Shown here: positions 3,237 to 42,067 of the stretch, one piece after another
Numbering within the stretch: position 1 is the first letter of the stretch
How the letters are laid out: each line of letters begins with the position of its first letter
NCBI GenBank assembly: GCA_963705915.1
Contig: OY970126.1
Span: 687,893-751,892, forward strand
Length of the DNA: 64,000 nt
Source: an uncultured bacterium
GTDB taxonomy: Bacteria > Patescibacteriota > Minisyncoccia > UBA6257 > 2-01-FULL-56-20
Reading direction: 5' to 3'
Translations under genes and position numbers: made by a program
Notes under the pieces: generated by a model
Told to the model about the DNA's origin: nothing
Database searches by the model: none
What the model saw: only the letters and a program-made list of their open reading frames with translations

Positions 3237-4338
3237 TTTTGAAATCGCGGGGATCGTTGCCGCCGCGACGGTAGGCGACGGCGTCTTTGCCCTTCCTTAC
3301 GTTTTCTATAACGCTGGCTGGCTCACCGGTATTTTTTATTTGTTGATTCTTGCGGGATTTGTGATTACGGCCCATGTTGTCTATCTGAAAGTACTTGAAT
3401 CTGAAGGTGAAAAGCAAAGACTGTTCGGGCTCGCAGAAAAATACTTCGGAAAAACCGGGTTTTGGGTTGGTTTTCTCGCAATCGTGATCGGGCTGTTGCT
3501 CACACTTGTTGCCTACCTCATTTTAGGAACGCAATTTATCCATCTCGCATTGCCCGGCGTGCCGCTCGATTACGGTTTTGTTGTGTTTTGGCTCATCATT
3601 TCCATCGTTGCGCTTTCAAATGACAAAGAAATCCGCGAACTCGAACTCGTCGGTATCGGTTGCACGTCGCTCATTATCATCATTATTTTTGCTTCAGCGT
3701 GGCCGAATATTTTTTTCAATGGTGTGCCCGCAGTGCATTGGCAAAATCTTTTCCTACCATTCGGTGCCGTTCTTTTTTCGCTTGCCGGATGGACGAGCAT
3801 CGAACCGGCGTATGAAGCCCGCAAAGGTTCCTCAAAGCGGAAACGCTCGCCCTGGAAGGCGCTCGCGATAGGCACACTTTTCGCCGCACTTCTCTATGCG
3901 ATGTTTGCATCGGGAATTCTCGGTTCCACGTCGTCTTCCATGATCACGCCCGACACCGCATCGGGGCTCGCCGCGTGGCCGTTCTGGAAAAAAGATTTGC
4001 TCGCAGCGCTCGGTCTCCTTGCGGTCGCAACGGTCTATCTCCCGATTTCGCGGGAAATAAAAAATGCGCTGGAAAAAGATTTGAAATGGCCGCGCGGTTC
4101 GTCACGCCCGCTCGTCGTGCTCGTGCCGCCCGCGCTTATTCTCCTCGGCGTCAATAACTTTTTGGCAGTCGTCGGCCTCGTCGGCGGCGTATTCCTCAGT
4201 CTGCAATACCTTCTCATCATTTCCGTCGGCCGCCGCGCGCTCAAATTGAAAACTGGTGTAAACGTTGCGCTCGACATCATCGCCATCGTTTTCATCGTCG
4301 CTGCAGTTTACTCGGTGTGGCAGTTCATAGTAAGATAG
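3226..4338 (+). CDS. amino acid permease-like polytopic membrane protein (Trp/Tyr-permease / AAAP-like)
   Basis: about 11 hydrophobic helices; N-terminal IAGIVAAATVGDGVFALPYVF resembles amino-acid transporter signature; overlaps previous gene by 11 nt. Confidence 0.55.
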   Translation: MSDNFEIAGIVAAATVGDGVFALPYVFYNAGWLTGIFYLLILAGFVITAHVVYLKVLESEGEKQRLFGLAEKYFGKTGFWVGFLAIVIGLLLTLVAYLILGTQFIHLALPGVPLDYGFVVFWLIISIVALSNDKEIRELELVGIGCTSLIIIIIFASAWPNIFFNGVPAVHWQNLFLPFGAVLFSLAGWTSIEPAYEARKGSSKRKRSPWKALAIGTLFAALLYAMFASGILGSTSSSMITPDTASGLAAWPFWKKDLLAALGLLAVATVYLPISREIKNALEKDLKWPRGSSRPLVVLVPPALILLGVNNFLAVVGLVGGVFLSLQYLLIISVGRRALKLKTGVNVALDIIAIVFIVAAVYSVWQFIVR

Positions 4339-4379: not shown

Positions 4380-4451
4380 GCCCTCGTAGTTCAACGGATA
4401 GGACATCTCCCTCCGAAGGAGAAGATCGAGGTTCAATTCCTCGCGAGGGCA
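4380..4451 (+). tRNA. tRNA-Arg (anticodon CCG)
   Basis: manual cloverleaf: acceptor GCCCTCG/CGAGGGC, anticodon stem TCTCC/GGAGA with loop CTCCGAA, T-arm CGAGG-TTCAATT-CCTCG, discriminator A; a hairpin precedes it at ~4347-4376. Confidence 0.8.
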
Positions 4452-4465
4452 CAAAAGTTTCCGCC

Positions 4466-15922: not shown

Positions 15923-16232
15923 GGGGACGATCGGTTTTGATGGATTGAAGCGATGGGTTTGCGAGCCGAGCGCGCGTGCGTTACAGCGCATCATTTATAA
16001 CTGCCAACTCTAATCGAGTTACAGCTCCAGCATACGCTTTCGCGTAAGTTGGGATCGGCCAGCCAGGGTCTCTTTGGCTGATACCGGTCTTATATAAGGA
16101 GACTCAAGTTCGCGAGGACGATTCTAGTCGCGGAACAAAAACCAAGAATCATTCGTTAGCTTTCGCTATCTACGCTCGTAGACGGCCCACTCGATTTCCT
16201 TCCAGACGGCAGTTCGATTCTGCCCGTCTCCA
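15923..16232 (+). ncRNA. ssrA: tmRNA (transfer-messenger RNA)
   Basis: 5' GGGGACG pairs with 3' CGTCTCC-A giving a G3:U70 wobble (alanine identity); T-arm GGCAG-TTCGATT-CTGCC; internal TGCGAGCCGAG...TATAACT|GCC region parallels the B. subtilis tmRNA resume region; tag ORF from GCC 16003 to TAA 16047 encodes ANSNRVTAPAYAFA. Confidence 0.8.
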
Positions 16233-16589
16233 CTTTATAGAAGGTCTCTTCGTCGGTCAACTTTTCATGCTTGCCGTTCGGATATTCCATGCCACTCCAC
16301 TTGATCCAACCGATGGAGGGTAGAGCTGAAAGACATGGATTTTCCCGTGCTTCCGCTAAAACCCGTTTTCCAGATACGAAGGAGAATCGGTGAAAGCTTT
16401 GTTGACGAAAGTGAGTTCTACTGGGCTCTTTCTTCGCCGACGCGGCGCGACCATTTTGAGCGTTGCCTCAAAGAATTTCGCGGGAGAAAGTAGTCCGTTT
16501 TCGGCGGCCAGCCACAACTGGTCGCCGTTTTTGTCTTGTCCCAGCGTCAAGCATTTCTGCCTGAGAGAGGGAATTGTTAAGATACAGAG

Positions 16590-30245: not shown

Positions 30246-31973
30246 ATGAAAGACATTATCCTCACTCTATTGAAGAATGCCCTTGGCACGGAGGCATCCG
30301 TGGAGCTTTCTGTTCCCGAAGATCTGCATTTTGGGCATTATTCCACGAATGTCGCCATGCGGCTTGCGAAGGCGCGTGGCCAGAATCCGTTCAAGCTCGC
30401 TGAAGAGCTTGCGGCGGACATTCAGAGGGCAGCTCCGGCAGGATTTTTTGAAAAAGTTGAGGCCGTTGCTCCGGGTTTTATCAACTTTTGGTTAAGCAAG
30501 AAAGCCATCCAAGATGAACTCGGCGGTGTCGCTCGGCTAAAAAACTTCGGCGCGAATGAGACGGGGAACAAGAAAACCGTGATTGTCGAATATTCTTCGG
30601 TGAATATTGCAAAGACGATGAACCTTGGGCATTTCCGCACGACGATCATCGGTGAATCGCTCGCGCGCCTTCTTGAAAGCTCCGGATACCACGTTGTCCG
30701 CTGGAATTATCTGGGTGATTGGGGAACGCAGTTTGGCAAACTCATCGCCGCATATAAATTGTGGGGGAATAAGAACATTGTTGAGGCAGCTCCCGTTGAA
30801 GAACTGCAGAAGCTCTATGTTCGTTTCCACGAAGAGGCAAAGGTGGATGAGTCGCTTGAAAAGCGTGGCCAGGAAGAATTCCAGAAACTGGAATCAGGCG
30901 ATAAAGAAAACCGCAAGCTTTGGGAGTGGTTTAAAAAAGAATCATTGGAAGAATTTAAAAATTTGTACGCCATGCTCGGCGTCGATTTCGACGTCTGGAT
31001 CGGTGAGAGTTTCTTTGAAGACAAGATGAAAGGCGTTGCGCAAGAACTCGTGGAGAAGAATATCGCCGAACGGAGCGAAGGCGCGCTCGTGGTAAAGCTC
31101 GACGAATTTAATCTGCCGCCGGCGCTCATCGAAAAATCTGACGGCGCGAGTCTGTATCTCACCCGTGATATTGCGAATCTGGAATATCGCTTGGAAAAAT
31201 ACAAGCCGTCAAAAATGCTCTACATCGTTGCGAACGAACAGGCGTTGCATTTCGAGCAACTCTTTGCGATTGCGAAAATCTTGAAGTGGGCCGGTGACGA
31301 CAAAGCAGAACTCACGCATGTGAAGTACGGCCTCGTGCTTGGCGAAGGCGGTAAAAAACTTTCAACGCGCGAAGGAAGAGGTATTTCAATGAAGCAAGCA
31401 CTTGAAAAAGCTGTTACGCTCGCTCGCGACATCGTTGAGAAGAAAAATCCTGATCTCAGCGCAACGGAGAAAGATAACATCGCCCGTGCCGTTGGCCTCG
31501 GAGCGCTCAAATACAACGACCTCAAAGAGAACCGGATGACGGACATAGCATTCGACTGGGATAAAATGCTTGATTTTACGGGCGATAGCGGCCCTTACCT
31601 CCAATATACCTATGCGCGTCTGCGGAGCATTGAACGGAAGGGCGGCATCACGGCGAATGCGTTCAAAACGAGCGCCACAAAAAAGGCGGATTTCTCACTG
31701 CTCGATTCGGAAAACGAACTCGCCCTCGCGCGAAAAATTTTTGAGTTCCCCGATGTCGTCATGAAATCTGCCGAACTGTATTCAACAAGCACGCTCGCGA
31801 CGTATCTTTATAGACTTGCTGGCACCGCGAACAAGTTTTATGAAACGACTCCGATTTTGAAGGATGAAAACGAAAAACGCCGCGTCGCGCGCCTCGCGCT
31901 CGTTGATGTTGCCGCAAGGACCTTGCACTCCGGACTTGCCTTACTCGGCATCGAGGCGCCGGAGCAGATTTGA
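30246..31973 (+). CDS. argS: arginine--tRNA ligase
   Basis: class I catalytic core plus C-terminal DALR anticodon-binding domain. Confidence 0.9.
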   Translation: MKDIILTLLKNALGTEASVELSVPEDLHFGHYSTNVAMRLAKARGQNPFKLAEELAADIQRAAPAGFFEKVEAVAPGFINFWLSKKAIQDELGGVARLKNFGANETGNKKTVIVEYSSVNIAKTMNLGHFRTTIIGESLARLLESSGYHVVRWNYLGDWGTQFGKLIAAYKLWGNKNIVEAAPVEELQKLYVRFHEEAKVDESLEKRGQEEFQKLESGDKENRKLWEWFKKESLEEFKNLYAMLGVDFDVWIGESFFEDKMKGVAQELVEKNIAERSEGALVVKLDEFNLPPALIEKSDGASLYLTRDIANLEYRLEKYKPSKMLYIVANEQALHFEQLFAIAKILKWAGDDKAELTHVKYGLVLGEGGKKLSTREGRGISMKQALEKAVTLARDIVEKKNPDLSATEKDNIARAVGLGALKYNDLKENRMTDIAFDWDKMLDFTGDSGPYLQYTYARLRSIERKGGITANAFKTSATKKADFSLLDSENELALARKIFEFPDVVMKSAELYSTSTLATYLYRLAGTANKFYETTPILKDENEKRRVARLALVDVAARTLHSGLALLGIEAPEQI

Positions 31974-32056
31974 TGAAAATTGACGGCTCAAGCCAAGGTT
32001 CGCTATAGTGCAAACAGAAAGTTTGCAAGAAAATAGTTTCGCTCGGAGGAGCCCCA

Positions 32057-32851
32057 ATGAGCAAATTCCAGCCGTTTTGCGGTGTTGCCGGAGTGCGGAC
32101 CGTCGAACAAGCATTAGCGGTCGCAGAGAAAGCGCCGAAAATCCCTGGGCGCAAAGTTGCCATCGGCGTCGTCACCACTCCGGAAAGCATCCGGGGAGAA
32201 CGCATTGACGGCCGGTGCGCCAAACCCGAGGACATCAAAAGAATTTTTGAAGGCTTGCATCAGGCAGGCCATGACGTCCTCAAGGTGCTTCATCTTTTTG
32301 ACCCCGGGAAAACATTCACATTGCTTTACGACAACGCCACCATGGTTCTCGACGTTGCCGGAGAACATTGTGATGCGATCCAGTTCAACACTTCGTGGCC
32401 GGATCCGCAAGCGATTGCGCGTCTCGCCACCTGCCCGCCGAGAAGGATCGGCCTCATCCTGCACGTCGGCAAGCGAGCGCTCAGAGAGACGACATATTCC
32501 CCGAGAGCATGTGCCGACAGAATTCTGAACGGCTACCCTCGAGTTTTTGATTATGTCATGTTCGATCAGAGTGATAGCAGGGGAACGTTGATCGACCCCG
32601 AATTTCACCGCCCATTTTTGCAAGAACTGTGGCGCGGTGATTCTCGGATCGGCCTTGCCGTCGCCGGAGGACTTTGGGTTGATAATTTGCACCGGCTCAA
32701 GTCTCTCTTGCTGGAATTTCCCAACCTCTCGATGGACGCACAGACGAGCGTCCATGATGCCGATGGAAGATTCTCCGTCGACCGATCGCTGCAACTCTTG
32801 GGCGGATTCGAGAATCTCACGCGAGAAACCCTTTTGTGCCCGACCGGATGA
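32057..32851 (+). CDS. TIM-barrel protein related to phosphoribosylanthranilate isomerase (TrpF/PRAI family), orphan
   Basis: FCGVAGVRTVEQALAVAE, FDYVMFDQSDSRGTLIDPEF and LAVAGGLWVDNL align with TrpF signature regions. Confidence 0.5.
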   Translation: MSKFQPFCGVAGVRTVEQALAVAEKAPKIPGRKVAIGVVTTPESIRGERIDGRCAKPEDIKRIFEGLHQAGHDVLKVLHLFDPGKTFTLLYDNATMVLDVAGEHCDAIQFNTSWPDPQAIARLATCPPRRIGLILHVGKRALRETTYSPRACADRILNGYPRVFDYVMFDQSDSRGTLIDPEFHRPFLQELWRGDSRIGLAVAGGLWVDNLHRLKSLLLEFPNLSMDAQTSVHDADGRFSVDRSLQLLGGFENLTRETLLCPTG

Positions 32852-32876
32852 ACCTATCCGGCGGGCGTTTTTTTTG
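32837..32876 (+). terminator. intrinsic terminator overlapping the stop codon of the TrpF-like gene, just upstream of ileS
   Basis: stem gcccgaccggat / atccggcgggc, loop gaacct, followed by TTTTTTTT. Confidence 0.65.
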
Positions 32877-32890
32877 TTATTTTATGAGGT

Positions 32891-35800
32891 ATGGCCGACG
32901 AACCGAAGCAAGAATTCAATCTCGCCAAGCTCGAAGAAAAAACGCTGGCGTCCTGGAATGAACACCATATTTTTGAAAGAAGTTTAGCGCAAACGGAAAA
33001 CGGCAAACCGTTCACGTTTTATGACGGTCCGCCTTTTGCGACCGGTCTGCCGCACTATGGCCACATTCTGGCCTCTACTATTAAAGACGTCGTGCCGCGT
33101 TACCAGACGATGCAAGGCCGCTACGTACGACGGCGCTGGGGTTGGGACTGTCATGGCCTGCCAATAGAAGAGATTGTTGAGCGTAAGCTTGGTATCTCAG
33201 GAAAAAAGCAAATCGAGGAAATCGGCATCAAGAAATTCAACGAGACATGCCGCAGTATGGTCTTGCAATACGTGTCCGAGTGGCGCGACATGGTCAACCG
33301 CATCGCGCGATGGGTTGATTTTGATAATTCGTATAAGACGATGGACACCGATTATATGGAATCGGTATGGTGGGCGTTCAAACAAATTTACGACAAAGAT
33401 CTCATCTACGAAGGGCGAAAAGTATTGCTGTATTGTCCGCGCTGCGAGACACCGCTTTCGAATTTTGAAGTCGCGATGGATAACAGTTATAAAGATGTGA
33501 GCGAAGAGTCGGTTTTTGTGAAGTTCAAAGTGAAGCCGGCACAAAAAATCGGACAGCATGTGGTTCGCGAAGACGACAAAATATATATGCTCGCATGGAC
33601 CACGACGCCGTGGACGTTGCCGGGGAACGTGGCGCTCGCCGTCGGCAGAGACGTCTCCTATGCGGTTGTCGATATGGATGGGGAAAAGTTAATTCTCGCA
33701 AAAGCGCTCATCGAAAAAGTTTTTCATCACGACATGGTGATTGAGCACGAGATCAAAGGATCGGATCTCGTTGGGCTCGCCTACGAGCCGTTGTTCGTCG
33801 TTGGCGCGGTGCAGGCAGATGAAAACGCCGAGCGGGCATTCAAAGTGTATGCCGCCGATTTTGTGACCACGGACGAAGGCACGGGCATCGTGCATACCGC
33901 CGTTGTCTATGGGGAAGACGACTACGCCCTCGGCGTGCGTGAACATTTGCCTGTCGTCCCGCTTCTCAATGAACAGGGGGTATTTAATGAAAAAGCACCG
34001 GAATTAGTCCGCGGACAATATTTCAAAAAAGCCGATCCGATTGTGATAGAAAATCTGCGCGAACGCGGTCTGCTATTCAGAAAAGAACTCCACACGCACT
34101 CATATCCGTTTTGCTGGCGTTGCGGAACCACCCTCTTCTATAACGCGATTCCGGCATGGTTTGTGAACGTGCAAAAAATAAAGCCGCAGCTTTTGAAGTC
34201 GAATGATAAGGAGGTCAATTGGTATCCGGAACATCTCAAACACGGCCGTTATGAAAAGAGCGTCGAAGCCGCGCCCGACTGGAATATTTCCCGCAATCGC
34301 TACTGGGGCAATCCCGTGCCGGTTTGGAAATGTGAAAAGTGCGAAGATGAAGTCGTCATCGGCAGTCTCGATGAACTCTCGAAGCACGCTGGCGGTGTAA
34401 AAAATAATTACTGGGCTATGCGTCATGGCGAATCGGAAAATATTATCTTTAAACTTCTCGACTCTGGCGACCAACATTTCCACCTCACCCCTCTTGGTAG
34501 AGAGCAGATCGCAAAAGCCGCAAAAAAATTGAAATCGGATAAGATCGATCTTGTTTTCTCGTCTGACCTTGAGCGCACCAAAGAAACTGCTGAGATCATA
34601 GAAAAAGAGATAGGCGTTCACGTCCATTTCGACAAGCGTCTCCGTGAGATGAATTTCGGAAACCTTTCGGGTAAGCCTGCGGCGGTATACACATCAGCCT
34701 TTCCAAGGCAGGAGAGTCGTTTTGAGGGAAAAGTTGAACCTGCGGGTGAATCGCTCCGCGATGTCCGTACGCGGGTGTGGGATTTTCTCCGTGAGATGGA
34801 AGAAAAACATCACGGCAAAAATATTTTGATTATAAGTCACGCGGATCCTATATGGATGCTGTCGCAGATTGCCTATGGCTGGAGTGAAAAAGAAACAGCG
34901 GCCAAAAAAGACGACGAGAAAGGCTTCATGGAACCGGGTGAGATACTCAAGCTTCCCGTAAAAAATATCCCCCGCAACGACACAGGCGCTGCCGATATGC
35001 ACCGTCCCTACATCGATGAAATAACATTCCCATGTTCCAATAAAAAGTGCGATGGCACCATGACGCGCACGCCGGAGATTTTTGATTCATGGATGGAAGC
35101 CGGCTCGATGCCATTCGCCGAATATCATTATCCGTTGGAAAATAAAAAAGTTTTCGAGAACCGATTCCCGGCGCAGTTTGTCGCCGAATATATTGCCCAG
35201 ACACGGGCATGGTTCTATGTGATGCACGTGAATTCGCAGATTTTATTCGGCCATGCCCCATTCGAAAATGTGGTGACGACGGGCACCATTCTCGCCGAAG
35301 ACGGATCGAAGATGAGCAAATCAAAAGGCAATTTCCCTGACCCCAAAATCGTGATCGACAAATACGGTGCGGACAGTCTCCGGTTCTATCTCATGAATTC
35401 CGTGGTGATGCAGGCCGACAACCTCAATTTTTCCGAGCAAGCCGTCGCGACCGTCTATCGAAAAGTCGCGCTCATCCTTTGGAACGTCGCAAAATTCTTT
35501 ACGACGTATGTTGAGCCAAGCGATCTCGTATTGGAAAAAATGGGCAAAGCCGCCACCGGAAGCTCTGTACCAGAAAACATCCTCGATCAGTGGATCACGG
35601 TGCGCACCAATGATCTCATCCGCACGGTCACGGGCAGTCTCGACGGCTATGACACCGTCCGCGCCACGCGCGCAATCCAGGAATATATTGATGATCTTTC
35701 GACGTGGTACCTTCGCCGGAGCCGCAAGCGAAAAGATCCAGGGTTCGTCGGCACGTTTTACACAAGCCTCATGACGGCTGCAAAAGTGATCGCGCCATTC

Positions 35801-36424
35801 ATGCCGTTCCTCGCCGACGAACTGTACACAGCGCTCAAACCCTATAGCCACGGCATAGGATCCGCAGAATCCGTCCATCTCACTGAATGGCCAACGGCAG
35901 ATAAGCAAAAAAATAAAGCTGCCGACGAGGCGTTGCTCGCGGACATGGCCGAAGTGCGCCGCCTCGCAAGTCTCGGACTTGGATTGCGTTCCGATGCAAA
36001 GATAAAAGTGCGACAGCCGCTCGCATCGATCACGATAAAAAATGCACAGCTCTCGCACGAACTGTCCGTGATCCTCGCCGAAGAGGTGAATGTGAAGCAG
36101 GTGAAAGTTGATGAAAAAATGGCCGACGAAATTTTACTTGACACGGCGATCACCGCTGAGCTTCGTGAAGAAGGTTTACTTCGCGAACTCATCCGCATGA
36201 TCCAAGGACTTCGCCAAGAAGCCGGCCTCGAACCGAAAGATGCCATTGCCGTGTTCGCAGAGCTTTCCGGCGACATCAAGTCCGCCGTCGAGCGCAACGC
36301 AGAATTTCTGAAAGACGAGGTGAACGCCGAATCACTTGACTACAAGCGATCGGATAACGTGAAAGCCCAAGAAGAAGCAAAAATCGACGGCGAGAACGTT
36401 TGGTTTGGGATTAGGAAGGCTTAG
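32891..36424 (+). CDS. ileS: isoleucine--tRNA ligase carrying an internal ~200-aa histidine phosphatase (PGAM-family) domain insertion
   Basis: class I ligase with HYGH, CP1 editing domain and KMSKS; between the conserved VIGSLDEL and HRPYIDEI...DSWMEAG blocks the ORF encodes AMRHGESEN ... LTPLGREQ ... FSSDLERTKETAEII ... ISHADPI, i.e. both catalytic His motifs of the RHG phosphatase superfamily. Confidence 0.9.
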   Translation: MADEPKQEFNLAKLEEKTLASWNEHHIFERSLAQTENGKPFTFYDGPPFATGLPHYGHILASTIKDVVPRYQTMQGRYVRRRWGWDCHGLPIEEIVERKLGISGKKQIEEIGIKKFNETCRSMVLQYVSEWRDMVNRIARWVDFDNSYKTMDTDYMESVWWAFKQIYDKDLIYEGRKVLLYCPRCETPLSNFEVAMDNSYKDVSEESVFVKFKVKPAQKIGQHVVREDDKIYMLAWTTTPWTLPGNVALAVGRDVSYAVVDMDGEKLILAKALIEKVFHHDMVIEHEIKGSDLVGLAYEPLFVVGAVQADENAERAFKVYAADFVTTDEGTGIVHTAVVYGEDDYALGVREHLPVVPLLNEQGVFNEKAPELVRGQYFKKADPIVIENLRERGLLFRKELHTHSYPFCWRCGTTLFYNAIPAWFVNVQKIKPQLLKSNDKEVNWYPEHLKHGRYEKSVEAAPDWNISRNRYWGNPVPVWKCEKCEDEVVIGSLDELSKHAGGVKNNYWAMRHGESENIIFKLLDSGDQHFHLTPLGREQIAKAAKKLKSDKIDLVFSSDLERTKETAEIIEKEIGVHVHFDKRLREMNFGNLSGKPAAVYTSAFPRQESRFEGKVEPAGESLRDVRTRVWDFLREMEEKHHGKNILIISHADPIWMLSQIAYGWSEKETAAKKDDEKGFMEPGEILKLPVKNIPRNDTGAADMHRPYIDEITFPCSNKKCDGTMTRTPEIFDSWMEAGSMPFAEYHYPLENKKVFENRFPAQFVAEYIAQTRAWFYVMHVNSQILFGHAPFENVVTTGTILAEDGSKMSKSKGNFPDPKIVIDKYGADSLRFYLMNSVVMQADNLNFSEQAVATVYRKVALILWNVAKFFTTYVEPSDLVLEKMGKAATGSSVPENILDQWITVRTNDLIRTVTGSLDGYDTVRATRAIQEYIDDLSTWYLRRSRKRKDPGFVGTFYTSLMTAAKVIAPFMPFLADELYTALKPYSHGIGSAESVHLTEWPTADKQKNKAADEALLADMAEVRRLASLGLGLRSDAKIKVRQPLASITIKNAQLSHELSVILAEEVNVKQVKVDEKMADEILLDTAITAELREEGLLRELIRMIQGLRQEAGLEPKDAIAVFAELSGDIKSAVERNAEFLKDEVNAESLDYKRSDNVKAQEEAKIDGENVWFGIRKA
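34397..34993 (+). other. in-frame histidine-phosphatase (phosphoglycerate-mutase-like) domain inserted within ileS
   Basis: bounded by IleRS-conserved sequence on both sides; contains RHGE and SHA catalytic motifs. Confidence 0.7.
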
Positions 36425-36689
36425 GGATATCGGCCTCGGCTAGCTTGTAGGCGGCATCTACGAATCTGTCGATCATTTTTTGCATGCTTTGCATTTCTTT
36501 ATAGACCATATTCATATCCGATTGGACCCTGGATAAAGCAAAACCGAGATGATCGTCTTGATATTTGATTTGCATCATATGCCGTTCCGTGGCGCTCAGG
36601 TGTACTTCAACCATATCAAACTTCGACGTTATTAAGTCTCTCAATGCACGGCTTGCCGAAAGAATTCTTTGTTCCTTTTGATCTTCCAT
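36411..36689 (-). CDS. small coiled-coil hypothetical protein
   Basis: AT-richer ORF; start placed at MEDQKEQ; overlaps the ileS stop by 14 nt. Confidence 0.35.
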   Translation of the reverse strand: MEDQKEQRILSASRALRDLITSKFDMVEVHLSATERHMMQIKYQDDHLGFALSRVQSDMNMVYKEMQSMQKMIDRFVDAAYKLAEADIPKPS

Positions 36690-36769
36690 ACTATCAAGTT
36701 TAGTGATAGCACAAAAGGAAGGCAAGTTCCTTTTAATGATTTTTTAATAAATAAAAATCGGAAATAAAA

Positions 36770-36791
36770 AGCGCCGATAAGCATCGGCGCT
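36770..36791 (-). terminator. intrinsic terminator for gene 36805..37878 (minus strand)
   Basis: perfect 9-bp stem agcgccgat/atcggcgct, loop aagc, T-rich run on the minus strand. Confidence 0.55.
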
Positions 36792-36804
36792 AAGAGACCA
36801 CGTG

Positions 36805-37878
36805 CTAGTCCTCGGCAATTTCTAGGAAAGCAAGCCCGCTTTCTTCGAGCTGACGGACTCTCTCTCGGGTTTTCCCCGTGAGATCCGCCACGGTTTGGAG
36901 CGTGCGATAGGAACCGTCAAAGATTCCGAATCGCAGTGCGAGGGTCCGATACCTATTCTCAGATTCTTTTCTCAATGATTCAAGCCGTCCGTCGGTTGAT
37001 GCTGTAACCAATTTCTCGAAGGTTTCAAATCGGGCAATGGGGAGGTCCTGTGGAATCACAATATCAGGGCGGATAGAAGCGATTACTTCCTTCAGCCGAG
37101 ACATTACACCCCCCAATTCCCTGATCTCACCATAGTTTCTACGAAACCGTTCAACCCGCTGCTTCAGGGCATTAGCCTTCCTGTTCCCGCCCAGTCCGGC
37201 ATCGAATGTGGGGTCAAGATATCGGATTACTGACTTGACGAGATCGGAAAGGTGTCCAGATGCCGTAGGCGCGAAGCCGTATTCAATGCCGATTTGAATC
37301 TGCGAAACATAATGCTCGCCCTTAAGGCAAAAATAGCGGGCAACTATTTCGGCAGATTCGGCCTTCATGAGCAAGAGTTCATCGAAAAGCTGCTTTTGCT
37401 CACCAGCTAGCTCACTGAAAAACTTTTTCTGCCAACGGTAATGAGGGGAAACGATCCTGCCATCTTCCCAGGCGAGGTGAGGGGCATAATGTCCGGGGAC
37501 AACTCTGACGTGCCTCTCTTCACATTGAGAAAAATGGGTTTTCGTCAGCTTCTTGTGCATCGAAGGTATGACCTGGATCACTTCAACTGACGGAGCCCTT
37601 TCGAGAATGAGGCCAATCGCCCAGACGAACGGGTATCCGTCGATGTGGACGAGTTTCGTCGTTGCATTCAACCGTTCGAATGTCCGATGGTTTTTATCGT
37701 GATAGGTCTTCACCAGCACATATCCCGCCTCATTCACACTTTCTGAGTTGATAGCATTCGCGCCGAACAGAGTTGCAGTTTTAGTTGCTTTCGGAATTTT
37801 TTTCTGGAATGTTGGTTGGCGCGGCGTGCAATAGCTGCACCAACTAGAGGGCAAACCATGCACACAATTTTCTGCCAT
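36805..37878 (-). CDS. hypothetical regulator: N-terminal Cys/His motif and C-terminal sigma-70 region-4-like HTH
   Basis: CVHGLPSSWCSYC near the N-terminus; C-terminal RYRTLALRFGIFDGSYRTLQTVADLTGKTRERVRQLEESGLAFLE resembles sigma-70 r4; middle ~250 aa unassigned. Confidence 0.55.
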   Translation of the reverse strand: MAENCVHGLPSSWCSYCTPRQPTFQKKIPKATKTATLFGANAINSESVNEAGYVLVKTYHDKNHRTFERLNATTKLVHIDGYPFVWAIGLILERAPSVEVIQVIPSMHKKLTKTHFSQCEERHVRVVPGHYAPHLAWEDGRIVSPHYRWQKKFFSELAGEQKQLFDELLLMKAESAEIVARYFCLKGEHYVSQIQIGIEYGFAPTASGHLSDLVKSVIRYLDPTFDAGLGGNRKANALKQRVERFRRNYGEIRELGGVMSRLKEVIASIRPDIVIPQDLPIARFETFEKLVTASTDGRLESLRKESENRYRTLALRFGIFDGSYRTLQTVADLTGKTRERVRQLEESGLAFLEIAED

Positions 37879-37941
37879 ATAATCTCCTAAGTTTCTAGCA
37901 GCATTATATCAAGAAATAACCTAAATGGCAAGGCGGGGGTT

Positions 37942-38928
37942 TTACAGCGCGATCCCAACTTTTTTGCGCACTTCTTCCATCTTTTTCTCCGCTACGCGCG
38001 AGGCTTTTTTGCTGCCGGCATTCAGGATCGCAATCAGTTTCTTGGGACTTGAGATGAGATCCGCTTTCTGTTCGCGGAAATCGGCAAAGGTACTTGTCAC
38101 GACTTCGGCAAGTCTCATCTTGAGGGCGGAATAATTTTGGCCATGGAATTCCTCGGCGACGATCTTTGGTTCCATGTGGGTGAGTGCGCCATAAATTTCG
38201 AGTAAGTTTGCAATGCCAGGCTTCTTATGTGGTTCGTAGACAACCTCCGACCCGGAATCGGTGACCGCACGAGCTATCTTCGAGGCAATTTCCTTCGGCG
38301 AATCATCCAAGAAGAGGCATCCCTCGGGCTGTGACTTCGACATCTTCTTTGACGGATCTTTGAGACTCATAATGCGTGCAGTCTTCGTGAGCAGTTCGCG
38401 CGGTTCGCGGAACGTCGTGCCGAATTTTGCATTGAATTTTCGTGCGAGCGTGCGGGTGAGTTCAATGTGCTGCAACTGATCGTCGCCAACCGGCACCACG
38501 TTCGGATTATAAAGAAGAATGTCCGCAGCCATGAGCGCGGGATAGGTGAAGAGGCCGGCGTTCACGTTCGCCGCCTGGCGCGAGGCCTTGTCCTTGTATT
38601 GCGTCATGCGTTCGAGTTCACCCATGGGCGCAAGGGTCGTCAAGATCCACGCGAGCTCGCTGTGCGCCGGCACCTGGGATTGCAAAAAGATGACGGACTT
38701 CTTGGGATTCAATCCCGCCGCCATATAATCCGCCGCGAGATTCAGAATTTGTGCACGCTTCTCGCGCGGTTCAAAATTTTCCGTGAGCGAGTGGAGGTCG
38801 ACGATAGGGAAGTAGCATTCGTATTTTTCCGAATCCTGCAGGTCGTGAAAATTCTTGAGCGCACCGAGATAATTGCCGATGTGCAATCGCCCGGTGGGCT
38901 GCATGCCGGAGACGAGGACGGGTTTCAT
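37942..38928 (-). CDS. trpS: tryptophan--tRNA ligase
   Basis: GxxPTGxLHIGNYLG and KMSKS motifs, about 330 aa; start at MKPVLVSG. Confidence 0.9.
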   Translation of the reverse strand: MKPVLVSGMQPTGRLHIGNYLGALKNFHDLQDSEKYECYFPIVDLHSLTENFEPREKRAQILNLAADYMAAGLNPKKSVIFLQSQVPAHSELAWILTTLAPMGELERMTQYKDKASRQAANVNAGLFTYPALMAADILLYNPNVVPVGDDQLQHIELTRTLARKFNAKFGTTFREPRELLTKTARIMSLKDPSKKMSKSQPEGCLFLDDSPKEIASKIARAVTDSGSEVVYEPHKKPGIANLLEIYGALTHMEPKIVAEEFHGQNYSALKMRLAEVVTSTFADFREQKADLISSPKKLIAILNAGSKKASRVAEKKMEEVRKKVGIAL

Positions 38929-38981
38929 ATGGATATGATAGCACGGAGGAGTAAACTGTATCACCTGACTCCTCGTTGGAG

Positions 38982-41944: not shown

Positions 41945-41983
41945 AGTCGCTATGTAATTGTTTTTATTAATTTTTAATCTTTG

Positions 41984-42067
41984 TGCCGAGGAGGAGATTC
42001 GAACTCCTATGACCTTGCGGTCGCTGGTACCTGAAACCAGTGCGTCTGCCAGTTCCGCCACCTCGGC
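41984..42067 (-). tRNA. tRNA-Leu (anticodon CAG), type II with long variable arm
   Basis: manual cloverleaf on the reverse complement: acceptor GCCGAGG/CCTCGGC, anticodon stem CTGGT/ACCAG with loop TTCAGGT, variable arm GACC-GCAA-GGTC, T-arm AGGAG-TTCGAAT-CTCCT, discriminator A. Confidence 0.8.

What the first reader, a model, noticed from the sequence alone, without database searches (positions are those of the whole stretch)
34397..34993. Complete histidine-phosphatase (PGAM-like) domain inserted inside isoleucyl-tRNA synthetase
The ileS ORF is 1177 aa, 80-240 aa longer than typical IleRS. The excess maps to one contiguous block. Conserved IleRS sequence (…CEKCEDEVVIGSLDELSKHAGG) is followed by about 200 aa carrying both catalytic signatures of the RHG histidine-phosphatase branch 1: AMRHGESEN, LTPLGREQ, FSSDLERTKETAEII and ISHADPIW. 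IleRS then resumes exactly at the conserved ADMHRPYIDEI…C-x2-C…TPEIFDSWMEAGSMPF block that precedes KMSKS. The reading frame is continuous with no stop or shift, so this is an in-frame domain insertion into an essential aaRS that already has a CP1 editing domain. I know of no described IleRS with a phosphatase module. It could be an extra proofreading or aminoacyl-adenylate/Ap4A-related activity, or a regulatory module.
Basis: partly seen in the sequence, partly recalled or inferred. Interest (0 to 1): 0.8.

Follow-up and report, generated by a model that had tools for sequence, protein, structure and literature searches.

The report
Histidine phosphatase nested inside IleRS
The isoleucyl-tRNA synthetase gene in this window really does carry a complete, apparently active histidine-phosphatase enzyme spliced into one of its surface loops; this two-in-one design is ancient and common across the Patescibacteria (CPR) but I found no paper describing it, so what the phosphatase does for translation is an open question.

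Summary
Confirmed. ORF 32891-36424 (+) encodes an 1177-aa type-2 IleRS (TIGR00392 843 bits). Residues ~506-699 form a complete His_Phos_1 domain (Pfam E=5e-37). It sits exactly between residues that are adjacent in solved IleRS, inside the CP3 subdomain between its two Cys pairs.

It is not a mis-assembly. All 120 best homologues (54-73% identity, several Patescibacteria lineages, some from contigs of 0.8-0.9 Mb) share it. Eight catalytic or structural residues (R511 H512 S558 R562 E586 E620 R628 H650) are essentially invariant. AlphaFold models are confident.

A tree of the IleRS body shows the insert is ancient. Rare empty-site relatives are secondary losses.

New here:
- Some IleRS carry two copies, in tandem or at two other sites.
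- The same phosphatase lineage is also fused to ValRS, ArgRS and TsaC, and occurs free-standing (~190 aa) with the same pocket.

All host enzymes make acyl-adenylates plus PPi for tRNA. I therefore infer a functionally coupled phosphomonoesterase. The substrate is unresolved: PPi or a nucleotide by-product is slightly favoured over a tRNA terminal phosphate or an unrelated housekeeping role. Eight literature searches found no description, and databases name these proteins only as IleRS or class I ligase.

The parts
32891..36424 (+). ileS: 1177-aa type-2 (eukaryote-like) isoleucyl-tRNA synthetase with a nested phosphatase. The stop codon TAG is at 36422-36424.
   Evidence: ORF. TIGR00392 843 bits against a cut-off of 621. 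Best solved relatives are type-2 IleRS: 8wnd, 7d5c, 1ile, 8c8u. The AF2 model has pLDDT 89 and pTM 0.83 and superposes on type-2 IleRS with target-normalised TM 0.76-0.89.
33053..33064 (+). HIGH signature (HYGH, aa 55-58) of the class I catalytic site
   Evidence: Sequence. H55, Y56 and G57 are invariant and H58 is at least 90% conserved in 82 homologues.
33596..33616 (+). CP1 editing-domain threonine-rich motif WTTTPWT (aa 236-242). Editing H335 is at 33893-33895 and D344 at 33920-33922.
   Evidence: All are invariant in 82 homologues. CP1 fragments of T. thermophilus IleRS match aa 199-406.
34331..34342 (+). First Cys pair (C481-x2-C484) of the CP3 four-Cys (zinc-knuckle type) module, upstream of the insert
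   Evidence: C481 is invariant and C484 is at least 90% conserved. It aligns to the CxxC of T. thermophilus and P. megaterium IleRS. T. thermophilus CP3 contains a zinc-binding motif (PMC7191050).
34406..34987 (+). Nested His_Phos_1 (branch-1 histidine phosphatase) domain, aa 506-699
   Evidence: Pfam PF00300 E=5e-37. Boundaries come from the PDB alignments. The insert-only AF2 model has pLDDT 93 and pTM 0.90. Foldseek gives TM about 0.75 to PhoE, PspA, GpgP and mycobacterial hydrolases.
34421..34429 (+). RHG motif: R511, nucleophile H512, G513
   Evidence: R511 and H512 are present in 120/120 homologues and G513 in 115/120. The motif is intact in nearly all of 307 domain copies.
34562..34576 (+). 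S558...R562 (SDLER): the second phosphate-binding arginine and the conserved serine
   Evidence: S558 and R562 are present in 120/120 homologues.
34646..34648 (+). E586, the probable general acid/base (LRE...G motif)
   Evidence: Glu in 114 and Asp in 6 of 120 homologues. It aligns to the LREIHLG motif of PhoE. The catalytic role is inferred from knowledge of the family.
34748..34774 (+). GES...R motif (E620 to R628) of the helical sub-domain
   Evidence: E620 and R628 are present in 120/120 homologues.
34838..34840 (+). H650, the second catalytic histidine (ISHADPIW)
   Evidence: Present in 120/120 homologues.
34970..34987 (+). Conserved C-terminal linker PRNDTG (aa 694-699) that returns the chain to CP3
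   Evidence: These are the only positions conserved in embedded copies but absent from free-standing relatives. A similar '...ARND...' remnant survives in the deleted-insert relative L022.
35033..35050 (+). Second Cys pair (C715-x4-C720) of the CP3 four-Cys module, downstream of the insert
   Evidence: C715 and C720 are invariant. They align to the second Cys pair of 1ile and 8c8u.
35309..35323 (+). KMSKS loop (aa 807-811)
   Evidence: K807, S809, K810 and S811 are invariant and M808 is at least 90% conserved.
35585..36421 (+). Anticodon-binding domain (Anticodon_1, aa 899-1045) and C-terminal DUF5915 domain (aa 1046-1177)
   Evidence: Pfam hits.

Best explanation
The gene encodes a bifunctional protein.

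(1) Shown: it is a complete type-2 IleRS, with the synthetic site, CP1 editing site and anticodon-binding domains all intact.

(2) Shown: the loop of its CP3 subdomain, which flanks the synthetic active site, carries a nested and autonomously folding branch-1 histidine phosphatase. This belongs to the small PhoE/PspA/GpgP-like phosphatase type, not to the true mutases. The insertion is ancient in the Patescibacteria IleRS lineage, is kept under purifying selection, and has occasionally been lost.

(3) Inferred from the invariant catalytic set: the domain is an active phosphomonoesterase that works through a phospho-H512 intermediate. R511, R562 and H650 would hold the phosphate and E586 would act as the acid/base. 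It uses the same pocket as the free-standing ~190-aa phosphatases of the same bacteria.

(4) Inferred from the host spectrum: the same phosphatase lineage has been joined repeatedly to IleRS (three different sites, 1-2 copies), ValRS (up to 4 copies), ArgRS (C-terminus) and TsaC (C-terminus). All of these convert ATP into an acyl-adenylate plus PPi for tRNA charging or t6A modification. Its job is therefore probably coupled to that step.

(5) My single best guess, which is weak: it hydrolyses a phosphate-bearing product or side-product common to these reactions. That would be PPi or an adenine or other nucleotide. This removes a product rather than proofreading Ile-AMP or Ile-tRNA.

Probabilities:
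- Architecture real and ancient: >0.95.
- Domain catalytically active: ~0.85.
- Functionally coupled to adenylate-forming tRNA enzymes: ~0.55.
- Substrate is PPi or a nucleotide: ~0.3.
For: - Architecture and boundaries.
- CP3 assignment and its proximity to the active site: PMC7191050 and PMC12077802.
- Conservation: all 120 best homologues carry PF00300. R511, H512, S558, R562, E620, R628 and H650 are present in 120/120 and E586 in 114/120, with Asp in the other 6. The full octad is intact in 257 of 307 domain copies, plus 25 with E586D. This includes every tandem, alternative-site, ArgRS-fused and TsaC-fused copy.
- Fold: the insert-only model has pLDDT 93; within the full-length model (pLDDT 89, pTM 0.83) the insert blocks score 86-97 apart from one surface stretch. 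The nearest structures are small phosphatases at TM about 0.75.
- Ancient gain and later losses: in an NJ tree of the IleRS body, the empty-site genes L023 and L020 and the remnant-bearing L022 are nested inside insert-bearing clades. GC content shows no discontinuity.
- Same pocket as free-standing relatives: there are no embedded-specific core residues. Free-standing homologues are 39-50% identical.
- Host spectrum: the nearest 150 representatives comprise 86 IleRS-linked, 2 ValRS-linked, 1 ArgRS, 1 TsaC, 55 free-standing and 5 others (tandem or N-extended His_Phos_1-only proteins). ArgRS fusions occur in three clusters, one only 49% identical. The fused ORFs were verified on their contigs.
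- Old tandem duplication with both copies retained as orthologous sets.
- Chemical plausibility: yeast branch-1 phosphatases Det1 and YOR283w release Pi from ATP, a phosphoanhydride, and from other substrates (PMC2737285).
Against: - No activity or substrate was tested, and substrate specificity in this superfamily cannot be read from sequence.
- The best NCBIfam and PDB matches are weak and heterogeneous: CobC, PspA, PhoE and RNase H/acid phosphatase, all below cut-off and at 22-25% identity.
- The attachment geometry is not conserved. It varies between CP3, about aa 755, about aa 885 next to the anticodon-binding domain, the ArgRS and TsaC C-termini, and a CP2-equivalent site in ValRS. This argues against channelling to the synthetic site. 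For a freely diffusing small molecule, tethering gives no obvious kinetic gain.
- Most aaRS, which also release PPi, and most Patescibacteria ArgRS lack the domain.
- IleRS works without it in some close relatives.
- I could not obtain model coordinates, so the orientation of H512 relative to the ATP or tRNA site is unknown.
- The ValRS transfer may not be independent, because IleRS and ValRS are paralogues.
- The host census covers only the 150 nearest representatives.
Confidence: 0.32

Rival explanations
1. tRNA-directed phosphatase. The domain removes a terminal phosphate from tRNA that the host enzyme recruits. The phosphate could be a 3'-phosphate or an opened 2',3'-cyclic phosphate left by RNase or toxin cleavage, or some other end phosphate. 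This would be an end-healing or quality-control step attached to tRNA-binding enzymes.
For: - IleRS, ValRS and ArgRS bind tRNA directly. TsaC/YrdC has been reported to bind tRNA or dsRNA (background knowledge).
- Tethering makes kinetic sense for a macromolecular substrate.
- Variable copy number and attachment sites are easier to tolerate with a large, flexible substrate.
- Free-standing relatives are often very basic. P0130 has pI 10.4 and +12.4 net charge per 100 aa, against -3.3 to +6.1 for its neighbours. Embedded copies, which could borrow the host's tRNA affinity, are near neutral.
- Yeast branch-1 phosphatases remove the terminal phosphate from end-labelled DNA (PMC2737285).
Against: - The charge contrast is partly a proteome-wide bias: Patescibacteria ArgRS controls have a median pI of 9.3.
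- No tRNA end-phosphatase of this fold is known to me.
- The copies at the ArgRS C-terminus and at IleRS site ~885 sit at the anticodon-binding end, far from the acceptor termini.
- TsaC does not act on tRNA directly.
- It is unclear why IleRS would be the main host rather than the CCA-adding enzyme or a ligase.
- The embedded pocket shows no adaptation compared with free-standing copies.
Confidence: 0.24
2. Autonomous housekeeping phosphatase that merely rides in essential translation genes. The fusion gives constitutive co-expression and gene economy in a reduced genome, and there is no biochemical link to aminoacylation.
For: - The pocket is indistinguishable from that of free-standing paralogues.
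- The insert has been lost more than once without loss of IleRS.
- Copy number and attachment site vary.
- The nearest characterised relatives are metabolite phosphatases: PhoE, PspA, GpgP, CobC and the riboflavin-pathway HFP.
- The free-standing P0130 sits among unrelated genes (secA and cell-wall genes).
Against: - All the non-self host families found are acyl-adenylate-forming tRNA enzymes (IleRS, ValRS, ArgRS, TsaC) and none is unrelated. If about 4% of a genome of about 800 genes belongs to this class, three independent random choices would give roughly 1e-4. This is a rough post-hoc estimate.
- The insert has been retained across deep Patescibacteria lineages, with junctions that have almost no linker (N505 in 116/120, PRNDxG).
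Confidence: 0.25
3. Regulatory module. The domain senses or turns over a phospho-metabolite or phosphoprotein and, from its position in CP3 next to the active site, tunes IleRS activity. This would be an allosteric domain-insertion switch or a protein/phosphohistidine phosphatase.
For: - CP3 flanks the active site (PMC12077802).
- The junctions are short and conserved, and the full-length model has a high pTM of 0.83, which suggests a fixed orientation.
- Some branch-1 members, such as SixA, Sts and PGAM5, are protein phosphatases (background knowledge).
Against: - C-terminal fusions to ArgRS and TsaC, and copies at other IleRS sites, do not suit a CP3-specific allosteric mechanism.
- The SixA model scores 27.7 against a cut-off of 74.5.
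- Tandem copies all keep their catalytic residues.
- There are no embedded-specific surface or pocket residues.
Confidence: 0.1
4. Catalytically dead structural spacer or tRNA-binding appendage.
For: aaRS commonly acquire non-catalytic appended domains (background knowledge).
Against: Eight catalytic or structural residues are invariant or nearly so in 120 homologues and 307 copies. That level of conservation is not expected for a spacer.
Confidence: 0.03
5. Artefact: mis-assembly, a chimeric contig, a gene-calling fusion of two genes, or a mobile intein-like element.
For: None found.
Against: - The same architecture appears in 120 homologous clusters from independent assemblies and sources, including contigs of 0.8-0.9 Mb and a record labelled as a chromosome.
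- The frame is continuous and both flanks are collinear with solved IleRS.
- GC content is even across the junctions.
- No Pfam family other than His_Phos_1 hits the insert.
Confidence: 0.01

Closest known systems
Type-2 (eukaryote-like) IleRS, e.g. Thermus thermophilus IleRS (1ILE), Priestia megaterium IleRS2 (8C8U/8C8V) and yeast cytoplasmic IleRS (8WND, 7D5C)
   Same: The domain order is the same: Rossmann fold, CP core, CP1 editing, CP2, CP3, anticodon-binding and C-terminal domains. HIGH, KMSKS and the editing motifs are present. The CP3 four-Cys motif matches that of T. thermophilus and P. megaterium. Sequence E-values are 1e-206 to 1e-220 and target-normalised TM is 0.76-0.89.
   Different: None of the solved enzymes has anything between the residues equivalent to 505 and 700. 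Here 194 aa of a second enzyme are nested there.
Small branch-1 histidine phosphatases: PhoE/YhfR (1EBB, 1H2E), PspA phosphoserine phosphatase (4IJ5), GpgP Rv2419c (4PZ9), mycobacterial hydrolases (6S2Q), riboflavin-pathway HFP (9MMH), CobC (6NRU)
   Same: The alpha/beta fold matches at TM about 0.75. The size is about 200 aa. The RHG...R...E...H catalytic constellation is present, and the extra segments of true mutases are absent.
   Different: Identity is only 22-25% and every curated equivalog cut-off is missed. The domain is nested in another enzyme and its substrate is unknown.
Rv2228c-type bifunctional RNase H/acid phosphatase (NCBIfam NF005567, PRK07238)
   Same: This is the best NCBIfam match of the insert at 97 bits. 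It is also a His_Phos_1 domain covalently joined to an enzyme that acts on nucleic acid.
   Different: The score is far below the cut-off of 326. It is a terminal fusion rather than a nested insertion, and the partner is RNase H rather than an aaRS.
NCBIfam NF040702 'isoleucine--tRNA ligase, N-acetyltransferase domain-containing' (ileS_w_GNAT)
   Same: It is a curated precedent for an IleRS that carries an extra enzymatic domain.
   Different: The extra domain is a GNAT. The window protein scores 315 against a cut-off of 1999, so it is not a member. I could not check where the GNAT is attached.
Hydrolytic domains inserted in or appended to aaRS: CP1 of IleRS/ValRS/LeuRS, the INS/YbaK domain of ProRS, and AlaX-type domains (background knowledge)
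   Same: A second hydrolytic active site is carried in cis by a synthetase, inserted into a connective-peptide loop.
   Different: Those are aminoacyl-ester hydrolases that proofread aa-tRNA. This one is a phosphoryl-transfer enzyme with no known role in fidelity.

Membership tests
Isoleucyl-tRNA synthetase (class Ia; NCBIfam TIGR00392 equivalog) | Whole-protein score above the curated cut-off | tested here: met
   843.1 bits against a cut-off of 621.4, in two stretches split by the insert.
Isoleucyl-tRNA synthetase (class Ia; NCBIfam TIGR00392 equivalog) | HIGH and KMSKS class I signatures | tested here: met
   HYGH at aa 55-58 and KMSKS at aa 807-811, invariant or nearly so in 82 homologues.
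Isoleucyl-tRNA synthetase (class Ia; NCBIfam TIGR00392 equivalog) | CP1 editing domain with the threonine-rich motif and the conserved His and Asp | tested here: met
   WTTTPWT at 236-242, H335 and D344 are invariant. aa 199-406 match the isolated T. thermophilus editing domains 1wk8 and 1ue0.
Isoleucyl-tRNA synthetase (class Ia; NCBIfam TIGR00392 equivalog) | Isoleucine-specific aminoacylation of tRNA-Ile | not testable with these tools
   This requires an enzyme assay.
Type-2 (eukaryote-like, mupirocin-insensitive type) IleRS | Closer to eukaryotic, archaeal, Thermus and IleRS2 sequences and structures than to type-1 enzymes (S. aureus, E. coli type), with a C-terminal DUF5915-type domain | tested here: met
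   E-values are 1e-204 to 1e-220 for 8wnd, 7d5c, 1ile and 8c8u, against 1e-75 to 1e-89 for 8c9e, 1ffy and 8wnf. TM scores agree. DUF5915 is present at the C-terminus. The MupA and MupB exception cut-offs of 1900 are not reached (699 and 685 bits), so it is not one of the clinical resistance alleles.
Histidine phosphatase superfamily, branch 1 (Pfam PF00300 His_Phos_1) | Score above the Pfam gathering threshold | tested here: met
   127.8 bits in context and 132.7 bits alone, against a threshold of 21.7.
Histidine phosphatase superfamily, branch 1 (Pfam PF00300 His_Phos_1) | RHG motif with the nucleophilic His, a second Arg, a second His and an acidic proton donor | tested here: met
   R511, H512, G513, R562, H650 and E586 are present, with 120/120 conservation for R, H, R and H. 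They align with the PhoE motifs.
Histidine phosphatase superfamily, branch 1 (Pfam PF00300 His_Phos_1) | Alpha/beta fold of the superfamily | tested here: met
   The AF2 model has pLDDT 93. Foldseek probability is 1.00 and TM is 0.70-0.77 to PhoE, PspA, GpgP and other members.
Histidine phosphatase superfamily, branch 1 (Pfam PF00300 His_Phos_1) | Phosphatase or mutase activity through a phospho-histidine intermediate | not testable with these tools
   This requires an enzyme assay with an H512A control.
Cofactor-dependent phosphoglycerate mutase (dPGM; TIGR01258, NF038349 and related equivalogs) | Score above the curated equivalog or subfamily cut-off | tested here: not met
   TIGR01258 scores 36.3 against 81.7. 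dPGM_arch scores 82.4 against 225. GpmB scores 64 against 261. The structural neighbours are the shorter phosphatases.
Alpha-ribazole phosphatase CobC (TIGR03162), phosphoserine phosphatase PspA (NF045917), phosphohistidine phosphatase SixA (TIGR00249) | Score above the curated equivalog cut-off | tested here: not met
   CobC scores 93.7 against 162.9. PspA scores 76.7 against 350. SixA scores 27.7 against 74.5.
IleRS with GNAT domain (NF040702) | Score above the exception-model cut-off | tested here: not met
   315 bits against a cut-off of 1999.

The most novel reading that the evidence does not exclude
A whole bacterial radiation has built a third catalytic activity into class Ia synthetases. 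In this reading the nested phosphatase acts in cis on the tRNA held by the synthetase, healing a phosphorylated end. Alternatively it acts on the PPi or nucleotide released at the adenylation step. Either way, phosphate removal becomes an integral and so far unrecognised step of tRNA charging and t6A synthesis in Patescibacteria. The tRNA-healing version would be a new kind of aaRS-coupled tRNA repair.
Probability: 0.24. Interest if true: 0.85.

Novelty: new variant of a known kind. Interest (0 to 1): 0.68.

Why it matters
Aminoacyl-tRNA synthetases are among the best-studied enzymes. Their accessory domains, whether for editing, tRNA binding or signalling, have repeatedly revealed new biology. 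In this case a complete second enzyme of a different chemical class sits inside CP3 of an essential synthetase. It is conserved across many lineages of Patescibacteria, a large and mostly uncultured bacterial group with minimal genomes.

The same phosphatase lineage has also joined ValRS, ArgRS and the t6A enzyme TsaC. This Rosetta-stone pattern points to an unrecognised phosphate-removing step linked to acyl-adenylate or tRNA chemistry.

The question can be tested directly with recombinant protein. Natural empty-site relatives already indicate how to design a clean deletion control. There are also practical consequences. Annotation pipelines currently name these proteins generically, as 'class I tRNA ligase family protein' or 'hypothetical protein'. 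The CP3 loop is also shown to be a natural permissive site for inserting a domain of about 200 aa into an aaRS, and up to about 800 aa in tandem.

Tried and rejected
- **Mis-assembly, chimera or split gene:** rejected, because the architecture recurs in 120 independent clusters and the alignment to solved IleRS is collinear.
- **Recent horizontal acquisition:** there is no GC or skew discontinuity, and the tree indicates an ancient gain.
- **Intein or mobile element:** only His_Phos_1 hits the insert.
- **Assignment to a characterised phosphatase family** (dPGM, GpmB, CobC, PspA, SixA, Rv2228c type): all curated cut-offs are missed. PDB sequence hits are no better than E of about 1e-10, and structural neighbours are heterogeneous. 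No substrate call is possible.
- **Search for embedded-specific pocket residues:** none were found beyond the linker.
- **Charge analysis as evidence for RNA binding:** suggestive, but confounded by basic proteomes.
- **Genomic context of a free-standing homologue (P0130):** uninformative, with secA and cell-wall genes as neighbours.
- **Free-standing paralogue elsewhere in the 64-kb window:** none.
- **The ORF between argS and ileS (32057-32851):** no Pfam hit.
- **ArgRS fusion as a common architecture:** it is rare, at 3 of 120 clusters.
- **UGA recoding to explain the in-frame stop in the ValRS example:** the stop is TAA.
- **Technical dead ends:** The afdb50 fold library was unavailable. 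The first Pfam batch was too large. The insert-only word-indexed search returned only 14 hits. Model coordinates are not exposed, so the distance from H512 to the active site could not be measured.
- **Eight literature searches** found no description of an IleRS-phosphatase architecture.


Full report
**1. Observation**

The window contains one uninterrupted ORF, 32891..36424 on the + strand, encoding 1177 aa.

Pfam finds tRNA-synt_1 split into two stretches, with His_Phos_1 (PF00300) between them at aa 508-667. That hit scores 127.8 bits, E=5.4e-37, against a gathering score of 21.7. The insert alone scores 132.7 bits. NCBIfam ileS (TIGR00392) scores 843 bits against a cut-off of 621.

HMMER alignments to solved structures are collinear on both sides of the insert. 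Query residues 505 and 700 align to adjacent residues 496 and 497 of yeast IleRS. When I deleted aa 506-699, the remainder aligned without a gap to P. megaterium IleRS2 and T. thermophilus IleRS. The insert is therefore aa ~506-699 (nt 34406-34987). Nothing in IleRS has been replaced.

**2. Where in IleRS**

The best solved relatives are type-2 (eukaryote-like) IleRS: 8wnd, 7d5c, 1ile and 8c8u at E 1e-204 to 1e-220. Type-1 enzymes score only 1e-75 to 1e-89.

The insertion point lies between two Cys pairs, C481-x2-C484 upstream and C715-x4-C720 downstream. Both pairs are conserved in the homologues and align to the corresponding Cys pairs of the T. thermophilus and P. megaterium enzymes. PMC7191050 defines this region as the CP3 subdomain (residues 473-534 in Candida IleRS) and states that T. 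thermophilus CP3 contains a zinc-binding motif. PMC12077802 places CP3 residues immediately beside the active site.

The phosphatase is therefore nested in the CP3 loop, with its two ends held close together by the four-Cys module. The N-terminal junction has essentially no linker: N505 is conserved in 116/120 homologues and strand 1 of the phosphatase starts at 506. The C-terminal junction is a conserved PRNDxG linker. HIGH, KMSKS and the CP1 editing motifs are invariant, so the IleRS part looks fully functional.

**3. Is it real, and is it a working enzyme?**

All 120 best homologues carry PF00300 together with the IleRS families. They are 54-73% identical, 1080-1239 aa long, and come from NCBI, ENA, JGI and Logan assemblies. 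Some lie on contigs of 0.8-0.9 Mb. The named ones are Paceibacterota, Minisyncoccia, Liptonbacteria, Jorgensenbacteria, Doudnabacteria and 'Patescibacteria group'. GC content is even across the junctions. Mis-assembly is excluded.

Within the insert, R511, H512, S558, R562, E620, R628 and H650 are present in 120/120 sequences. E586 is Glu in 114 and Asp in 6. Mean column conservation of the insert is 0.59, similar to the C-terminal domains at 0.62.

AlphaFold2 gives pLDDT 89 and pTM 0.83 for the whole protein. The insert blocks mostly score 86-97. The insert alone gives pLDDT 93 and pTM 0.90. The IleRS body superposes on type-2 IleRS structures with target-normalised TM 0.76-0.89.

Foldseek places the insert among the small phosphatase-type members of branch 1: mycobacterial hydrolases, PspA, GpgP, PhoE, the riboflavin-pathway HFP and CobC. 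TM is about 0.75 and identity 22-25%. Every curated equivalog cut-off for dPGM, GpmB, CobC, PspA, SixA and the Rv2228c type is missed.

The conclusion is a catalytically competent branch-1 phosphatase. It is not a mutase by any test available here, and its substrate cannot be assigned by homology.

**4. Evolution**

An exhaustive HMMER search of 1.84 billion cluster representatives with the insert alone gave 2021 hits at E<=1e-10. I classified the nearest 150:
- 86 are IleRS-linked.
- 2 are ValRS-linked.
- 1 is an ArgRS fusion.
- 1 is a TsaC fusion.
- 55 are free-standing proteins of about 190 aa.
- 5 are other His_Phos_1-only proteins: four tandem two-domain proteins and one with an N-terminal extension.

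A scan of GTDB species genomes found insert-bearing loci only in Patescibacteria-type MAGs. It also found three close relatives with an empty or nearly empty site:
- L023 (Liptonbacteria) and L020 have only about 6 residues between '...GELG' and 'HRPYIDE'.
- L022 has a 40-aa linker ending '...ARNDAEAMVDLHRP', which resembles the insert's own C-terminal linker.

I built a neighbour-joining tree of the IleRS body with the insert columns removed. These three genes fall inside insert-bearing clades, and all the deep branches carry inserts of 200-210 aa. This tree uses NJ with a midpoint root and has no support values, so it is indicative only. The simplest reading is one ancient insertion followed by at least two secondary losses. 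IleRS can therefore do without the domain, but it usually keeps it.

**5.

(a) Tandem duplication at the CP3 site occurs in P0172 (1468 aa), P0210, P0225, P0248 and P0186. The first copies form one orthologous set at 55-67% identity and the second copies another at 37-48%. The duplication is therefore old, and both copies have been kept.

(b) Second copies occur at other IleRS sites. In P0174 the copy follows window-protein residue ~755. In P0162 and P0170 (1419 aa) it lies at about 875-895, between the catalytic body and the anticodon-binding domain. That position coincides with the only internal low-confidence loop of the window-protein model, at residues 887-891.

(c) ValRS is also a host.
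- P0152 scores 411 bits on valS against 199 on ileS. It has one copy at a CP2-equivalent position, directly after the '...PQWFI' motif. Three more copies follow after '...IPVWY', which is the CP3-equivalent site.
- Its contig has about 2x coverage, and the fourth copy contains an in-frame TAA.
- A second ValRS-linked representative, P0266, is only 39% identical over the ValRS part.

(d) ArgRS carries a C-terminal copy in P0180, P0294 (88% identity) and P0295 (49% identity; argS TIGR00456 scores 411 against a cut-off of 262). The other 117 Patescibacteria ArgRS listed lack it, and so does the window's own ArgRS.

(e) TsaC, the threonylcarbamoyl-AMP synthase, carries a C-terminal copy in P0284 (TIGR00057 scores 146.8 against a cut-off of 123.2).

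The catalytic octad R-H-S-R-E-E-R-H is intact in 257 of 307 domain copies, and 25 more have E586D. This includes every tandem, alternative-site, ArgRS-fused and TsaC-fused copy. Most of the exceptions are truncated fragments. The ArgRS-fused domain is closest to free-standing proteins (50% identity). The TsaC-fused domain is closest to an IleRS-embedded copy (49% identity).

**6. Mechanism**

What is shown:
- The protein is an intact IleRS plus an intact phosphatase fold and catalytic set.
- The pocket is the same as in free-standing relatives. The only residues that are at least 75% conserved in embedded copies and rare in free-standing ones lie in the C-terminal linker and the IleRS flank.

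What is inferred:
- **Activity.** The domain is probably an active phosphomonoesterase working through phospho-H512.
- **Coupling.** Every host found (IleRS, ValRS, ArgRS, TsaC) converts ATP into an acyl-adenylate plus PPi in the service of tRNA, and no unrelated host turned up among the 150 nearest representatives. If such enzymes make up about 4% of a genome of about 800 genes, three independent random host choices would have a probability of roughly 1e-4. This is a rough post-hoc estimate, and ValRS may not be independent of IleRS. I therefore think functional coupling is more likely than not, at about 0.55.

The attachment geometry is not conserved. It includes CP3, residue ~755, residue ~885, a CP2-equivalent site, and C-termini that in ArgRS lie at the anticodon end. 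Tight channelling to the synthetic site is therefore unlikely.

Two coupled readings remain.
- **(A) Hydrolysis of a phosphate-bearing product common to these reactions, PPi or a nucleotide.** This explains TsaC as a host, and it needs no fixed geometry. There is chemical precedent: yeast branch-1 phosphatases release Pi from ATP (PMC2737285). However, tethering gives no clear kinetic benefit for a diffusible molecule.
- **(B) Removal of a terminal phosphate from tRNA recruited by the host.** This explains the tethering. The same yeast enzymes dephosphorylate end-labelled DNA. It also fits the strongly basic character of many free-standing relatives compared with the neutral embedded copies. 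That contrast is weakened by the control, because Patescibacteria ArgRS are themselves basic (median pI 9.3). The anticodon-end attachments also fit this reading poorly.

I put A at about 0.3 and B at about 0.24. The other readings are an unrelated housekeeping phosphatase using essential genes as a vehicle (about 0.25), a regulatory or protein-phosphatase role (about 0.1), a dead spacer (about 0.03) and an artefact (about 0.01).

An Ap4A-related role is disfavoured because ArgRS is a host. A proofreading role on Ile-AMP or Ile-tRNA has no support, because the pocket is that of a terminal-phosphate enzyme.

**7. Comparison with what is known, and novelty**

The IleRS part is a member of type-2 IleRS, and all testable criteria are met. 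The insert is a member of His_Phos_1 branch 1 at superfamily level only.

The closest conceptual precedents are:
- the Rv2228c RNase H/acid-phosphatase fusion, which is the best NCBIfam hit but falls below its cut-off;
- NCBI's curated 'IleRS with GNAT domain' model;
- the classical hydrolytic editing insertions of aaRS.

None of these is a phosphatase nested in CP3.

Eight full-text searches found no paper describing an IleRS, or any aaRS, with a histidine-phosphatase domain. The library lacks most subscription journals, so this is not proof that no description exists. The sequences themselves have been public for years. OGG39972.1 is named 'hypothetical protein', UniRef100_A0A1F6BT94 'isoleucine--tRNA ligase', and PGAP calls such proteins 'class I tRNA ligase family protein'. 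Precomputed Pfam hits exist, but no name acknowledges the phosphatase.

**Verdict.** This is a real, ancient and widespread but apparently undescribed variant of a known enzyme, with a suggestive multi-host pattern and an unknown substrate. Interest is about 0.68.

Noticed in passing
window 30246-38964: Three class I synthetase genes lie within 9 kb: argS (30246-31973, +), ileS (32891-36424, +) and trpS (37942-38964, -). The window's ArgRS has no phosphatase fusion, although relatives elsewhere do.
   Followed up: partly
window 32057-32851 (+): A 264-aa ORF sits between argS and ileS and has no Pfam match. An overlapping antisense ORF of 226 aa also exists. Whether it is a real gene is unknown.
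   Followed up: partly
window 36805-37878 (-): A 357-aa ORF downstream of ileS has a single Pfam hit, a marginal C-terminal Sigma-70 region 4 helix-turn-helix (24.4 bits against a cut-off of 24.1). The rest of the protein is unassigned.
   Followed up: no
window 15923-16233 (+); 4380-4452 (+); 41983-42067 (-): ARAGORN finds a tmRNA gene with tag peptide ANSNRVTAPAYAFA, a tRNA-Arg(CCG) and a tRNA-Leu(CAG).
   Followed up: no
L020:4522-7461 (JAUYPG010000039.1, labelled 'Nanoarchaeota archaeon'): A contig from a MAG labelled as archaeal encodes an empty-site IleRS that falls inside the Patescibacteria insert-bearing clade. This suggests either mis-binning or horizontal transfer.
   Followed up: partly
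L022:581-877: This IleRS has a 40-aa non-phosphatase linker at the insertion site, ending '...ARNDAEAMVDLHRP'. It looks like the scar of a deleted phosphatase domain.
   Followed up: partly
L027:366-3947 (protein P0152): This ValRS has four phosphatase copies. One is at a CP2-equivalent site and three are at the CP3-equivalent site. The fourth copy is interrupted by an in-frame TAA at 3849-3851 and continues in the same frame. The contig has about 2x coverage, so this could be a sequencing error or a pseudogene.
   Followed up: partly
L001:6001-6585 (protein P0130): This free-standing relative of the insert is extremely basic, with pI 10.4 and +12.4 net charge per 100 aa. Its neighbouring genes range from -3.3 to +6.1. 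That is unusual for a small-molecule phosphatase.
   Followed up: partly
proteins P0240, P0258, P0265, P0277 (about 360-415 aa): These proteins consist of two tandem His_Phos_1 domains with no synthetase part detected. They may be stand-alone didomain phosphatases or fragments of multi-copy synthetases on short contigs.
   Followed up: no
homologues P0002, P0017, P0062 and others: NCBI's pipeline names insert-bearing IleRS 'class I tRNA ligase family protein' rather than isoleucine--tRNA ligase, even though the window protein passes the TIGR00392 cut-off in my scan. The cause of the generic naming was not determined.
   Followed up: no
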